The position numbers and the translations under genes were made by a program. DNA of 64,000 bases from Candidatus Saccharimonadia bacterium (lineage in GTDB: Bacteria > Patescibacteriota > Saccharimonadia > CAILAD01 > CAZGYV01). Below the pieces are notes generated by a model. That model did no database searches. It had not been told where the DNA came from and was given only the letters and a program-made list of their open reading frames with translations. The stretch lies in contig JAYRII010000015.1 of assembly GCA_041906885.1 (NCBI GenBank), forward strand, positions 15,534-79,533, given 5' to 3'. Positions 39,804 through 62,715 of this stretch are shown here, in pieces; position 1 is the stretch's first letter; every line of letters starts with the position of its first letter.

Positions 39804-39849
39804 CAATCAAAAACGACCAAGCGCAGAGGCTTGGGCGTTTTTGGTGGAG
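39804..39849. repeat. Diverged third copy of the same element (shares the ATCAAAAACGACC head and the TTTTTGGTGGAG tail).
   Basis: The terminal ~12 nt match on both ends, but the middle has diverged. Confidence 0.4.
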
Positions 39850-40451
39850 CTGCAGGGAATTGCACCCTGGTCCATTTAAGGCTATCAATATAGCATCTAC
39901 AAGCTTAGTCAGCTTGGGAGTGGAGTTTAAGGAGTAAATAAAGCTTAAAACTGACCAAAAACTTTGCTCACTTCCCCTTCATTTTGGCTTAGGTAAAGGT
40001 CAAAGGGTAACCAAAACCGCAATCAGATAAATATGGCGCCCGTACTTCCCTATCTGACGTCAGGAGCTCGAGCGGCTATCGCGTATTACGCAAAAGCTGG
40101 TGCAAAAGCAGGCATGGCAAAAGCCGCGCGTACTTTGCTTACAAGTGATTTGGCACTTATAGTTGGTGGTGGTTTAACGCCCCTACCATGGCGGCTTGCA
40201 GCTACATGTCAAGTTCCTAATGTCGAAGCTAGTCAGCCCCATGTCGAGAATCGCTTCATTTCCGTTAAAAAGACAAGCTTTTTAACTTCAAATTACGCGA
40301 AACCTCTCCTCTTCAAATCAACCTCTATCGTCAAATTATTTTACAATTTATTGGTTATTCGGAAGAAATAATTTGCCAGCTGCGAGCTTGATTTGCTAAA
40401 AACACTTCTTTCAAGAAGCACCTGATATTCTACCACAAAAACGGCCATTTT

Positions 40452-57151: not shown

Positions 57152-58577
57152 CCCGACCTCTGATAATTATACGGATAGTCTTTAAGAAAATAACAAAATC
57201 AGTCCACAATGACCAATTTTCAACATAATAGATATCAAGTGCAATACGATCCTGATAGCTGACATCATTTCTACCCGAGACCTGCCACAATCCAGTTAAG
57301 CCCGGCTTGATAGCCAGAAATTTACTCGATACATCACCATAACGCCCCAGCTCGTCTTCGGTGATTGGCCGAGGACCCACCAGACTCAAATTACCAAGTA
57401 AAACATTAAATAGTTGAGGCAACTCATCTAGGCTGGTGCGTCGCAAAAACTGACCTAATCGACTAACCCTCGGATCATTTTTGATTTTCTGATGCTTTTT
57501 AAACTCAGTTAGGAGTGCCTTATCATTAAACTGGGACAGAACCTGCTCATTTGTTTTGTATTTATAATCCTTACCGACACAATACTCTTTCTTCATCGTT
57601 CGAAATTTATAGACATCGATTTTTTTGCCCTCGCGACTGAGCCTACGATGTAAATAAAAAATCGGACCGGGGTCAAAAATCTTAATCAAAACAGCAATGA
57701 TAATAAAAACCGGGCTCAGTATTATTAGACCGAGTAATGAACAAATTAGGTCGACAGTCCTCTTCACGATCCGCCCCCAACCTTCTAGCGGAGTTTGTAT
57801 CACCTCTAAGACAGGGATTGTTGAATATGGTACGGTTTCGCTCTGGGTCTTAAATAGACCAGCCGTTGGTGGCACGAACTTGTAATTAATCTGATTGGCG
57901 TGACAAAACTCTATGATTTCCAGCTGGCTTTTACTGTCAAGATTTGAGTCTGACATAAATATTTCATTAATGTGGTGAATATGATGAATTTTTTTGAGTA
58001 GCTCAATTCCCTTAATCGGCTTATACGACTTTGAATTTGATGCTATCTCGTCATTAAGCAAGCGGTAGCCGTTGTGTTGCGGTCTGAGTGATGTCTTTAT
58101 CTCGCGTGCCGCTGGGCCAGTGCCGATAATAAAGACATTATGAACCCCATAGCCAAATCGCCATAAAAATCTCTGAAAACCGCGTACCAGCTGCCTAGTG
58201 ATAACAATCAAGATGAAGGCAAAAATGAATCCATAGACTGGCACACTCTTGGAAGGAATTATTGGATTTTGGCTAGCAAAATCAGCTAGAATTAGAAACA
58301 TCACTCCACCGGCTGTAGCCACTAAAATACGACCGATTTCACTAAACCGACTACGGGTCGAGCGTAAGTTATAAAGACCAGACAGGGCGAAAAATAGTAT
58401 CCAAACTGGCAGCAACACCAGCATAAACTTCAAATACTGACGAGCTGGAATCTGATAAGCAATTGGCTTCTCGGCACTCAATCGCACTATATAAGCCAAG
58501 ACGAAGCCAATAATGGCTGCTAAATAATCAATTGGTACCAATATCAAACTAAAAAATAGCTCGCTGCGCTTTTTCAT
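57141..58577 (-). CDS. Polyprenyl-phosphate hexose-1-phosphate transferase (WbaP/EpsL-like bacterial sugar transferase)
   Basis: N-terminal multi-TM region and C-terminal sugar-transferase motif ..DELPQLFNVLLGNLSLVGPRP....KPGLTGLWQVSGR.. Confidence 0.8.
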   Translation of the reverse strand: MKKRSELFFSLILVPIDYLAAIIGFVLAYIVRLSAEKPIAYQIPARQYLKFMLVLLPVWILFFALSGLYNLRSTRSRFSEIGRILVATAGGVMFLILADFASQNPIIPSKSVPVYGFIFAFILIVITRQLVRGFQRFLWRFGYGVHNVFIIGTGPAAREIKTSLRPQHNGYRLLNDEIASNSKSYKPIKGIELLKKIHHIHHINEIFMSDSNLDSKSQLEIIEFCHANQINYKFVPPTAGLFKTQSETVPYSTIPVLEVIQTPLEGWGRIVKRTVDLICSLLGLIILSPVFIIIAVLIKIFDPGPIFYLHRRLSREGKKIDVYKFRTMKKEYCVGKDYKYKTNEQVLSQFNDKALLTEFKKHQKIKNDPRVSRLGQFLRRTSLDELPQLFNVLLGNLSLVGPRPITEDELGRYGDVSSKFLAIKPGLTGLWQVSGRNDVSYQDRIALDIYYVENWSLWTDFVIFLKTIRIIIRGRGGY

Positions 58578-58675
58578 GTAACCTTATTTTACACTAAATA
58601 ATTAAGAAAACCTCGCGGACTAAAGGGCTTGATGTAGCGACACCTTATTACGAGGTTTTCTTTTTAGATAAGGGC

Positions 58676-59309
58676 AGCCTGATTACCTAGCTATAAGCCG
58701 AATTCTGTATCCCGATGTATCGGGACGGCGATCATCTATCTTACTCTTTGCCCTACATCATCCGAGCAAATTGTATGTCAACTTAATAAAAGTCGATCAT
58801 GCGACATACCCATTCCAGGCGAGTAGCCTGGCACCTAATAAATGGTGGCGGGCCCATAGTCTTGCAGCCGACGGGGTTTACCACCAGCAGGCAGTCACCT
58901 GCCGCTGCTGTGAGCTCTTACCTCACTCTTTTCACCCTTACCCAGCACCTTAAATCGCTCAACAAAAGCCTGCTTACTTTTTAGTTCAACCAGCACTCTA
59001 CCATGATGCTTTAATTTTTGCTCACACTTCTTAAGCTAAGGCTTTTGTCTAAAGAGCCTTATAACGTACAAGCTATCGAGCCGAGCGAAACTTTGGTAAC
59101 AATTCTTTGCACATGATTGTGTTGGTAATATTTGTTTATGTATATACATAAACAAATTTTAACATAGCGATTTAAGGTGCTGGGCGGTATAGTCTCTGTG
59201 GCACTTTCCCTAGGGTCACCCCCGGTTGCCGTTAGCAACCGTCGTACTCTACGCTGTTCGGACTTTCCTCCCCGACAAGTCGGGGCGATCACCCACTAGC
59301 TAATCAGAC
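58676..59309 (-). ncRNA. rnpB: RNase P RNA, bacterial type A, with a ~230-nt insertion in P12.
   Basis: On the minus strand: P4/CR-I GGGGAGGAAAGUCCGAAC, CR-II/III AAGGGUGAAAAGAGUGAGGUAAGAGCUCAC, CR-V ACAGAAUUCGGCUUAU, and a P1 pairing CUGAUUAGCUAG / CUAGGUAAUCAG. Between CCGCCCAGCACC (59177-59188) and GGUGCUGGG (58941-58949) lies an AT-rich 227-nt segment closed by a perfect 19-bp duplex. A TATAAT box sits 7 nt upstream of the 5' end. Confidence 0.85.
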
Positions 59310-59316
59310 TACCGAT

Positions 59317-59322
59317 ATTATA
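59317..59322 (-). promoter_or_regulatory. -10 box (TATAAT) of the rnpB promoter.
   Basis: Exact consensus hexamer 7 nt upstream of the inferred rnpB 5' end, located inside the 3' end of rnhA. Confidence 0.4.
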
Positions 59323-59342
59323 CTATATTAAGTAGCTTTTGT

Positions 59343-59759
59343 CTATCTGTTGGCTTGAGCGTCCAAGCAAATATTAACTTGATTGTCAGCCAGCTTGTTA
59401 TTAGCCCGAAAAACATGCGAAAATGTTATGTTTTTACCAGCAATTTTGCTCTTAATCGACTCATAAATTGGTCTTAGATCTTGGTTTTTTACCCTATACT
59501 GACCATTTAACTGCTTCACGACCAGCTCACTGTCCAGATAGAACTCCACCCTATCTGCGTCATACTCGACTAACTTATCTAAAGCGATATCAACTGCCCG
59601 ATATTCTGCCTGATTATTGGTAGTAACCCCCCAGTAGCGACCAAACTGCTCGATAATTTCACCATCTGTGGTCATAAATACCACACCCGAGGCAGCTGGA
59701 CCGGGATTGCCCCTCGAACCACCGTCACAAAATATTTTTATAAGATCAAATTTTTTCAT
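59343..59759 (-). CDS. rnhA: Ribonuclease HI
   Basis: IFCDGGSRGNPGPAASG.., 138 aa, DEDD-type RNase H fold. Confidence 0.85.
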   Translation of the reverse strand: MKKFDLIKIFCDGGSRGNPGPAASGVVFMTTDGEIIEQFGRYWGVTTNNQAEYRAVDIALDKLVEYDADRVEFYLDSELVVKQLNGQYRVKNQDLRPIYESIKSKIAGKNITFSHVFRANNKLADNQVNICLDAQANR

Positions 59760-62639: not shown

Positions 62640-62715
62640 TGGTCAGGGTGAGAGGACTCGAACCTCCGGTCTCTGGACCCCCAGCCCAGCGCTTTACCAA
62701 CTAAGCTACACCCTG
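62640..62715 (-). tRNA. tRNA-Pro (anticodon GGG), CCA encoded.
   Basis: Hand-folded cloverleaf: acceptor CAGGGTG/CACCCTG, D-arm GCTT-AGTTGGTA-AAGC, anticodon stem CTGGG/TCCAG with loop CTGGGGG (G37), T-arm GGAGG-TTCGAGT-CCTCT, and A73-CCA. Confidence 0.85.

What the first reader, a model, noticed from the sequence alone, without database searches (positions are those of the whole stretch)
58676..59309. RNase P RNA carrying a ~230-nt AT-rich insertion in P12, closed by a perfect 19-bp duplex
All universal type-A elements are present in order (P4 GGAAAGUCCG, CR-II/III AAGGGUGAAA..GGUAAGAGCUCAC, CR-V ACAGAAUUCGGCUUAU, P1 pairing), but the RNA is ~630 nt rather than ~350-400 nt. The excess sits exactly at P12. 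The native CCCAGCACC/GGUGCUGGG stem is extended by UUAAAUCGCU/AGCGAUUUAA and then encloses ~190 nt containing further perfect palindromes (e.g. UUUGUUUAUGUAUA-UACAUAAACAAA). P12 is the most variable RNase P helix, but an expansion of this size with perfectly paired termini looks like a recent insertion of a palindromic mobile element, or a lineage-specific functional domain.
Basis: seen in the sequence. Interest (0 to 1): 0.6.

Follow-up and report, generated by a model that had tools for sequence, protein, structure and literature searches.

The report
Giant RNase P RNA, recent P12 insertion
A Saccharibacteria bacterium's essential tRNA-processing ribozyme gene (RNase P RNA) is 627 nt instead of about 400 nt because 187 nt of non-coding, AT-rich DNA recently landed in the tip of its most variable hairpin; this is an unusually clean snapshot of how a structured RNA grows, but not a new kind of element.

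Summary
A full-length bacterial type-A RNase P RNA gene (RF00010, 202 bits) lies on the minus strand at 58678-59304. It is 627 nt, against 331-489 nt in 36 syntenic relatives. Almost all the excess is in helix P12, which is 243 nt against 9-98 nt in relatives.

The "perfect 19-bp duplex" is not the ends of an inserted element. A relative (L190) has the same P12 arms, base for base, around an ordinary 65-nt hairpin, so it shows the empty site. The real insertion is 187 nt (58969-59155), placed at the 5' edge of the old apical loop.

The insertion has:
- no ORF, intron signature, tandem repeats or terminal inverted repeats;
- no second copy in the window, in 1.1 Mb of relatives' loci, or in the phage and plasmid collections;
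- no better-than-random internal folding (measured on the 206 nt between the arms).

It is identical in at least 10 independent assemblies, so it is not an artefact.

My best reading is a recent, strain-specific and probably neutral insertion at the distal tip of P12, co-transcribed with the ribozyme. Whether the RNA keeps it or RNase III trims it, as with rRNA intervening sequences, is untested. I class it as a new variant of a known kind, of moderate interest.

The parts
58678..59304 (-). rnpB, bacterial type-A RNase P RNA, 627 nt
   Evidence: RF00010, 202.3 bits, E 4.7e-64, model 1-367 complete. It lies in the same place (RNase HI - rnpB - sugar transferase) as the rnpB of 36 relatives' loci. 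The score matches the closest relatives (L184 201 bits, L178 209 bits).
59317..59345 (-). sigma-70-type promoter TAGACA-17-TATAAT just upstream of the RNA's 5' end
   Evidence: 11 of 12 consensus matches, and the only promoter-like site in 58500-59450. The TATAAT is conserved in the relatives' alignment.
58941..59184 (-). whole P12 helix (about 243 nt)
   Evidence: Placed in the P12 hairpin by the covariance-model alignment. In the fold of the full 627-nt RNA it pairs only with itself.
59156..59184 (-). native 5' strand of the extended P12 (CCCAGCACCUUAAAUCGCUAUGUUAAAAU), which includes the 5' arm of the 19-bp duplex
   Evidence: 29 of 29 identical to L190, L191 and L192, which lack the insertion.
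58941..58968 (-). native 3' strand of the extended P12 (CUUUUGUUG AGCGAUUUAAGGUGCUGGG), which includes the 3' arm of the 19-bp duplex
   Evidence: Matches L190's loop and 3' strand, except that the window has one copy of an 8-9-nt unit (G/A)GCGAUUU where L190 and L002 have two.
58969..59155 (-). the actual insertion: 187 nt, 35% GC, non-coding, single copy
   Evidence: Delimited by comparing the filled site (window) with the empty site (L190). The 206-nt stretch that contains it has stops in all six frames. No Rfam family matches at E<=10. No tandem repeats. No terminal inverted repeats and no match in 1.1 Mb of loci. No match in phages or plasmids.
59130..59157 (.). 28-nt perfect, spacer-less DNA palindrome (12-bp RNA hairpin with a 4-nt loop) at the 5' junction of the insertion; it overlaps the old flank by 2 nt
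   Evidence: Self-match of 28 nt at 100% on the opposite strand; inverted repeat I2; hairpin in the predicted folds.
58962..59048 (-). 10-nt perfect inverted repeat (58962-58971 / 59039-59048) that can pair the 3' junction with the interior
   Evidence: Inverted repeat I3; forms in the predicted fold. Its significance is unknown.
58604..58662 (-). 12-bp inverted repeat ending in a U-rich run, downstream of rnpB; a possible terminator
   Evidence: Inverted repeat I3. The consensus terminator scan did not pick it up because the loop is too long. The terminator function is inferred.

Best explanation
This is the working RNase P RNA gene of a Saccharibacteria (Patescibacteria/CPR) strain. Its lineage already had an elongated, AU-rich P12 hairpin of about 65 nt. 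One strain then acquired a 187-nt piece of non-coding, AT-rich DNA exactly at the 5' edge of the apical loop of that hairpin.

The piece is transcribed as part of the ribozyme from the single upstream promoter. The pre-existing 19-20-bp stem insulates it from the rest of the fold. It is tolerated because the distal tip of P12 points away from the catalytic core and the tRNA-binding face.

I read it as a young, probably neutral expansion segment rather than a mobile element, an intron or a functional domain.

Shown:
- the identity of the gene;
- the filled and empty sites;
- a single copy in all the sequence available;
- no coding, intron or repeat signatures;
- reproducibility across independent assemblies.

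Inferred:
- that the RNA is active;
- that the insert stays in the mature RNA;
- that it is neutral;
- the way it arose. I suggest illegitimate or homology-facilitated recombination, or repair of a break at the tip of a DNA hairpin, possibly with fold-back copying that produced the 28-nt perfect palindrome.
For: Gene identity and integrity: full RF00010 match, with a score equal to the closest relatives.

Conserved position: RNase HI - rnpB - sugar transferase in 36 relatives' loci.

Empty site: L190, L191 and L192 have a 65-nt P12 with 29/29 identical bases on the 5' side. The 3' side (CUUUUGUU...AGCGAUUUAAGGUGCUGG) is also identical apart from one 8-9-nt repeat unit.

Not an artefact: the 766-nt region between the flanking genes is 100% identical in 10 spanning contigs from independent sequencing runs.

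One transcription unit: there is one strong promoter upstream and no promoter or terminator on the RNA's strand inside the insert.

Insulation: in the fold of the whole 627-nt RNA the insert pairs only with itself, and P1, P3, P13, P14, P18 and P19 still form.

No sign of function or mobility:
- stops in all frames;
- no Rfam hit at E<=10;
- folding of the 206 nt between the arms z = -1.2;
- no tandem repeats;
- no terminal inverted repeats;
- no other copy.

Composition: 34-35% GC, like this genome's intergenic DNA at 30-40%.

P12 varies strongly in this clade: 15, 20, 56, 65 and 98 nt in the nearest lineages, and those tips are unrelated in sequence while the core is 84-92% identical.

Literature:
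- The tip of P12 is a recurrent site of expansion in archaeal and eukaryal RNase P RNA, and bacterial expansions accrete away from the tRNA interface (PMC12974513).
- CPR RNase P RNAs show large helix extensions (PMC8172020).
- P12 is dispensable in cyanobacteria (PMC2858038, citing Vioque 1997).
Against: No RNA data exist, so retention of the insert in the mature RNA and activity of the enzyme are both assumed.

Only 64 kb of a roughly 1-Mb genome could be searched for further copies, and the large public nucleotide collections could not be searched with the insert. A multi-copy element is therefore not excluded.

A 28-nt perfect palindrome and a 10-nt perfect long-range repeat are more order than a random filler sequence should have.

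The closing duplex (19 perfect pairs, 20 in the fold) is the size of an RNase III substrate, so processing is plausible.

A second, intact rnpB elsewhere in the genome cannot be excluded from the window alone.
Confidence: 0.55

Rival explanations
1. Intervening-sequence (IVS) model. The insert behaves like the IVSs of bacterial 23S rRNA. RNase III cuts the long closing duplex and the insert is discarded without re-ligation. The cell then runs on a two-piece RNase P RNA held together by the base of P12 and by tertiary contacts.
For: - A perfect Watson-Crick closing stem (19 pairs, 20 in the fold), about the size of an RNase III substrate.
- AT-rich, ORF-less, not an intron, under 250 nt, at the tip of a helix, and sporadic among close relatives. 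These are the features of rRNA IVSs.
- In Saccharibacteria, 64 of 66 rRNA insertions are short (<=250 bp) and lack introns and homing-endonuclease genes. Short insertions at the classical IVS sites of CPR 23S rRNA are thought to be cut by RNase III (PMC11270868).
- The sequence between the arms shows no selected structure, as expected for a discarded spacer.
Against: - No RNA evidence.
- The same duplex exists in L190 without any insert, so it was not brought in as a processing signal.
- No naturally fragmented bacterial RNase P RNA turned up in a full-text search (0 papers).
- No RNase III gene in the window, although 64 kb says little about the whole genome.
Confidence: 0.25
2. Non-autonomous mobile element (MITE, or a palindrome-associated IS200/IS605-type derivative) that transposed into the P12 loop.
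For: - A discrete filled-versus-empty site pair with identical flanks.
- A perfect 28-nt palindrome at one end, as in hairpin-bearing IS200/IS605 ends.
- A possible 5-6-nt direct repeat (UUGUU) near both junctions, seen directly in the sequence.
Against: - No second copy in the 64-kb window or in 1.1 Mb of relatives' loci.
- No match in 2.3 Gb of phage and 7.3 Gb of plasmid sequence. Two 19-20-mers are absent from IMG/VR.
- The ends of the 187 nt are not inverted repeats.
- The 19-bp 'terminal' duplex is native P12.
- The direct repeat is imperfectly placed and lies in AU-rich sequence, so it may be chance.
Confidence: 0.1
3. A functional add-on domain of RNase P RNA, for example a binding platform for a protein or another RNA, selected in this organism.
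For: In archaea and eukaryotes, insertions at the tip of P12 provide protein-binding sites (PMC12974513). The insert is fixed in the one strain sampled across at least 11 runs.
Against: - It is confined to one strain, and all contigs are >=99.97% identical, so this is a single sampling of evolution.
- The nearest relatives have unrelated or short P12 tips.
- The sequence between the arms folds like shuffled sequence.
- The flanks are identical to the empty site, which implies it is very young.
Confidence: 0.05
4. Self-splicing intron (group I or II), or an assembly chimera.
For: CPR structural RNA genes often carry group I and II introns (PMC11270868, PMC8172020).
Against: - No group I or II intron model matches, nor any other Rfam family, even at E<=10 with permissive filters.
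- 187 nt is below the usual size of such introns.
- The sequence is identical in 10 spanning contigs from independent runs, which excludes a chimera.
Confidence: 0.03

Closest known systems
STRR sequences inside P12 of rnpB in heterocyst-forming cyanobacteria (Vioque 1997, Nucleic Acids Res 25:3471; seen here only as a citation in PMC2858038, details from my own knowledge)
   Same: Extra, lineage-restricted, non-coding DNA that lengthens helix P12 of a bacterial type-A RNase P RNA. P12 is reported there as dispensable.
   Different: STRRs are tandem short repeats that occur in many copies in the genome. Here Tandem Repeats Finder finds nothing and no other copy is seen.
Intervening sequences of bacterial 23S rRNA (helices 25 and 45) and the short ORF-less rRNA insertions of Saccharibacteria (PMC11270868)
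   Same: AT-rich, <=250 nt, no ORF, not an intron, at the tip of a helix, closed by a long duplex, patchy among close relatives, and found in a reduced-genome organism with single-copy structural RNA genes.
   Different: The host gene is rnpB, not rRNA. Excision by RNase III is untested. The closing duplex pre-dates the insert.
P12-tip expansion segments (ES5.1/ES5.2, P12.1/P12.2) of archaeal and eukaryal RNase P RNA (PMC12974513); giant yeast RNase P RNAs (own knowledge)
   Same: Same site of growth, the tip of P12, with the core left untouched.
   Different: Those segments are conserved across lineages and bind proteins. This one is strain-specific, very young, and shows no sign of selected structure.
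Diverged RNase P RNAs of CPR bacteria with large helix extensions or missing helices (Lui et al. 2021, PMC8172020)
   Same: Same superphylum, and the same general phenomenon of unusually extended helices in type-A RNase P RNA.
   Different: The example shown there is an extended P15, and some of their RNAs lack P12. No 187-nt P12 insertion or filled/empty site pair is described.
MITEs and IS200/IS605-derived palindromic elements
   Same: Small, non-coding, hairpin-bearing, and a discrete insertion.
   Different: No multiple copies, no terminal inverted repeats and no clear target-site duplication.

Membership tests
Bacterial RNase P RNA, type A (RF00010) | Full-length match to the covariance model above the curated gathering score, including the P4 and CR-I to CR-V blocks | tested here: met
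   202.3 bits against 100, model 1-367 with no truncation.
Bacterial RNase P RNA, type A (RF00010) | Type-A-specific helices P13/P14 and P18 present | tested here: met
   Aligned and formed in the predicted fold.
Bacterial RNase P RNA, type A (RF00010) | Orthologous position and own promoter | tested here: met
   Same gene order in 36 relatives' loci; promoter with 11 of 12 consensus matches.
Bacterial RNase P RNA, type A (RF00010) | Catalyses 5' maturation of pre-tRNA | not testable with these tools
   Needs an activity assay.
Group I / group II intron | Match to the conserved catalytic core (RF00028 / RF00029) | tested here: not met
   No such hit at E<=10 in 58930-59195 on either strand.
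MITE or other non-autonomous transposable element | Several related copies in the genome | tested here: inconclusive
   None in the 64-kb window or in 1.1 Mb of relatives' loci. The rest of the genome was not available.
MITE or other non-autonomous transposable element | Terminal inverted repeats belonging to the element, and a target-site duplication | tested here: not met
   The ends of the 187 nt do not match as inverted repeats. The 19-bp duplex is native. Only a loosely placed UUGUU repeat is present.
rRNA-type intervening sequence (RNase III-excised) | Sits at the tip of a helix and is closed by a duplex of about 20 bp or more | tested here: met
   19 perfect pairs (20 in the fold), with 206 nt enclosed.
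rRNA-type intervening sequence (RNase III-excised) | Sporadic among close relatives; AT-rich; no intron core | tested here: met
rRNA-type intervening sequence (RNase III-excised) | Removed from the transcript by RNase III without re-ligation | not testable with these tools
   No RNA data. No rnc gene in the window, which is not informative for the whole genome.
Cyanobacterial STRR-type P12 insert | Tandem short repeats | tested here: not met
   Tandem Repeats Finder returns 0 rows at minimum score 30.
Lineage-conserved expansion segment | Present and homologous across a lineage | tested here: not met
   Only this strain has it. L184, L176, L178 and L003 have tips with chance-level similarity. 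L190 and L002 have the empty site.

The most novel reading that the evidence does not exclude
In these Saccharibacteria the P12 tip would be a hypervariable module that is swapped between lineages by recombination. The window's P12 arms match L190's at every alignable position (about 56 nt), although the two rnpB cores are only 84% identical, and although L190 and its 96.5%-identical relative L002 differ at 6 of 65 P12 positions. On top of this, the 187-nt piece would be an IVS removed by RNase III, giving a naturally split, two-piece bacterial RNase P ribozyme.
Probability: 0.15. Interest if true: 0.7.

Novelty: new variant of a known kind. Interest (0 to 1): 0.4.

Why it matters
At 627 nt this gene is longer than the 250-550 nt range quoted for prokaryotic RNase P RNAs (PMC7191817; type-A mean 374 nt). 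It occurs in an organism with a reduced genome.

The main value is the matched pair of a filled site (window) and an empty site (L190) with identical flanks. It catches the birth of an RNA expansion segment at the site, the tip of P12, where archaeal and eukaryal RNase P RNAs grew. That makes the accretion model of structured-RNA evolution testable on a natural example.

If the insert turns out to be cut out by RNase III, it would be, to my knowledge, the first natural split bacterial RNase P RNA, and it would extend the IVS phenomenon beyond rRNA.

On the practical side, such inserts lower covariance-model scores and can cause rnpB to be missed or mis-bounded in CPR genomes.

Tried and rejected
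- Intron: Rfam with permissive filters on the insert gave only chance hairpin hits (mir-297 and similar, far below their gathering scores).
- Coding: there are stops in all six frames, and tblastn with the fragments found nothing.
- STRR-like tandem repeats: none.
- Other copies: blastn against the window, 1.1 Mb of loci, phages and plasmids and two k-mer scans of viral contigs were all negative.
- 'P12 within P12' (the insert as a degenerate copy of another rnpB S-domain): a GUGCUGG match caught my eye, but the best local alignment to 28 S-domain segments scores below the shuffle mean, with 157 of 200 shuffles as good. Rejected.
- Assembly artefact: rejected, because the sequence is identical in 10 spanning contigs from independent runs.
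- Population polymorphism: uninformative, because all contigs are the same strain at >=99.97% identity.
- Contig ends clustering near P12 looked like strain heterogeneity at P12. Most of them (L091, L094, L180-L182, L198/L002) fall in the conserved blocks flanking P12 (GGGAAAGUGCCACAGA and GGUAAGGGUGAAAAG), which is the usual metagenome graph branching in conserved sequence. L085 starts inside the insert and is not explained this way.
- Look-up of the spurious 77-aa ORF over rnpB, hoping to fish out transcript-like contigs: not on record.
- JGI metagenome scan with the neighbouring protein: no close relatives, best 51% identity.
- Vioque 1997 could not be read.

Full report
WHAT IS THERE

A scan of the whole window against Rfam finds bacterial RNase P RNA class A (RF00010) at 58678-59304 on the minus strand. 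The match scores 202.3 bits (gathering score 100), E 4.7e-64, and covers model positions 1-367 with no truncation. All the extra sequence is placed in the hairpin loop of helix P12.

The perfect 19-nt inverted repeat is real (58941-58959 / 59166-59184, 206 nt between the arms), and so is the internal palindrome. The palindrome is a spacer-less, perfect 28-nt DNA palindrome at 59130-59157.

The block between the arms is 34% GC. The rest of rnpB is 53% and the window is 44%. It resembles this genome's intergenic DNA, which is 30-40% GC.

The P12 region folds much better than shuffled sequence (z = -6.1). The 206 nt between the arms do not (z = -1.2, 23 of 200 shuffles as good). The signal is the closing stem, not a structured interior.

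A strong promoter (TAGACA-17-TATAAT, 11 of 12 matches) lies just upstream at 59345-59317. No promoter- or terminator-like site lies inside the insert on the RNA's strand. In a fold of the whole 627-nt RNA the insert pairs only with itself, and P1, P3, P13, P14, P18 and P19 form as expected.

WHOSE GENE, AND IS THE INSERT REAL?

The neighbouring sugar transferase identifies the organism as a member of Saccharibacteria / Saccharimonadia (CPR/Patescibacteria). The gene order RNase HI - rnpB - sugar transferase is conserved. rnpB was found at that position in 36 related loci and is 331-489 nt long there.

Exact-protein look-ups returned contigs from at least 11 sequencing runs of four accession series. 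Ten of them span the whole 766-nt stretch between the flanking genes and are 100% identical to the window. This excludes an assembly artefact. All these contigs are at least 99.97% identical to the window over their full length. They represent one strain and say nothing about polymorphism.

P12 IN THE RELATIVES

Using the invariant flanks, I extracted P12 from every locus. It is 9-98 nt in 26 distinct relatives' P12 sequences and 243 nt in the window.

| Lineage | P12 length | rnpB length |
|---|---|---|
| L001 / L194 | 15 nt | 391 nt |
| L183 | 20 nt | 411 nt |
| L178 / L179 | 56 nt | 439 nt |
| L190 and L002 | 65 nt | 456 nt (L190) |
| L176 / L184 | 98 nt | 489 nt (L184) |
| window | 243 nt | 627 nt |

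The longer P12s of relatives are simple, nearly uninterrupted AU-rich hairpins. Their tips are unrelated to the window's interior, with local alignment scores at the shuffle level for L176, L178 and L003. The rnpB cores, by contrast, are 84-92% identical. P12 is thus hypervariable in this clade.

THE DECISIVE COMPARISON

L190, L191 and L192 belong to a lineage whose RNase HI is 75% identical to the window's. Their P12 is:

CCCAGCACCUUAAAUCGCUAUGUUAAAAU-CUUUU-GUUUUGGCGAUUUAGCGAUUUAAGGUGCUGG

Its first 29 nt are identical to the window's. Its loop and 3' strand (CUUUUGUU...AGCGAUUUAAGGUGCUGG) are also identical, except that the window has one copy of an 8-9-nt unit where L190 and L002 have two.

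It follows that the 19-bp perfect duplex is the pre-existing P12 of this sub-lineage and not the ends of an inserted element. The true insertion is 187 nt (window 58969-59155). It sits between AAAAU and CUUUU, at the 5' edge of the old apical loop.

WHAT THE 187 nt ARE NOT

- Not coding: the 206-nt stretch that contains them has stops in all six frames.
- Not a group I or II intron or any other Rfam family, even at E<=10.
- Not tandem repeats, unlike the cyanobacterial STRR inserts in P12.
- Not bounded by inverted repeats of their own.
- Not a copy of another rnpB segment.
- Not found anywhere else that I could search: the window, 1.1 Mb of related loci, phage and plasmid collections, and two k-mers in viral contigs.

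The limits matter.

MOST LIKELY EXPLANATION (about 0.55)

The insert is a young, strain-specific and probably neutral insertion at the tip of P12. It is co-transcribed, and the old 19-20-bp stem insulates it from the rest of the fold.

It is tolerated because the tip of P12 lies away from the active site and the tRNA interface. That last point rests on established structural knowledge and on PMC12974513. [quoted passage not shown] P12 is also reported as dispensable in cyanobacteria (PMC2858038, citing Vioque 1997). CPR RNase P RNAs are known to carry large helix extensions (PMC8172020).

How the DNA got there is inferred. The spacer-less perfect palindrome at the junction, and the 8-9-nt unit that differs in copy number, point to DNA-level processes such as fold-back copying, slippage and illegitimate or homology-facilitated recombination. 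They do not point to selection on RNA pairing.

MAIN RIVAL (about 0.25)

The insert could be an rRNA-type intervening sequence cut out by RNase III, which would leave a two-piece ribozyme. The anatomy fits:

- a long perfect closing duplex;
- AT-rich, ORF-less, under 250 nt;
- patchy distribution among relatives.

Saccharibacteria rRNA genes carry just such short, intron-less insertions (64 of 66; PMC11270868). Only RNA data can decide between retention and excision.

The remaining ideas score lower: a mobile element about 0.1, a functional domain about 0.05, and an intron or chimera about 0.03.

A SIDE OBSERVATION

The window's P12 arms match L190's at every alignable position (about 56 nt), yet the two cores are 84% identical. 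L190 and L002 have cores that are 96.5% identical, yet they differ at 6 of 65 P12 positions. At 84% identity, 56 straight matches have a chance of about 5e-5.

The 14 nt immediately 5' of P12 carry two differences in which the window agrees with L184 and L178, not with L190. This suggests a recent lateral exchange or gene conversion limited to the P12 module. It is a lead, not a demonstrated recombination event.

VERDICT

This is a new variant of a known kind: a bacterial type-A RNase P RNA with an exceptionally large, recently expanded P12. It exceeds the 250-550 nt range quoted for prokaryotic RNase P RNAs (PMC7191817). Interest is moderate (0.4). The gene is ordinary in function, but it is a clean natural example of a structured RNA gaining an expansion segment, with an open and testable question about RNase III processing.

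Noticed in passing
window 58941-59184 compared with L190:2083-2147 and L002 P12: The window's P12 arms are identical to those of L190, whose rnpB core is only 84% identical. L190 and its 96.5%-identical relative L002 differ at 6 of 65 P12 positions. This is incongruent with the core and protein trees and suggests recent lateral exchange or gene conversion of the P12 module alone.
   Followed up: partly
L085, L091, L093, L094, L180-L182, L176, L002/L198 (contig ends): Many metagenome contigs from four lineages end at or next to P12. Most ends checked (L091, L094, L180-L182, L198/L002) lie in the conserved blocks flanking P12 (GGGAAAGUGCCACAGA, GGUAAGGGUGAAAAG). L198 and L002 of one MAG abut with a 1-nt gap there. 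This is ordinary graph branching in conserved sequence, not P12 heterogeneity. L085 starts inside the insert and is not explained this way.
   Followed up: yes
window 58735-58800 (minus strand), region of P18: The stretch that the model expects to be 20 nt is 53 nt here and holds an extra hairpin next to P18. Close relatives (L176, L178, L002, L003-L008) share this lineage-typical expansion in varying form.
   Followed up: partly
window 39842-40240 (minus strand): A tmRNA gene: Rfam RF00023, 100 bits, full length. ARAGORN did not report it on the same window.
   Followed up: no
window 62640-62715 (minus strand): tRNA-Pro(GGG), the only tRNA in the 64 kb.
   Followed up: no
L021:2318-2552 and L104:1240-1473: In more distant Saccharimonadia relatives a 6S RNA gene directly followed by a tRNA lies about 1 kb upstream of rnpB. 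No 6S RNA reached the gathering score in the window.
   Followed up: no
L002 and L190 P12 3' strand; window 58951-58968: An 8-9-nt unit (G/A)GCG(A/G)UUU is present twice in tandem in L190 and L002 and once in the window. It is a small slippage-type length change inside P12.
   Followed up: partly
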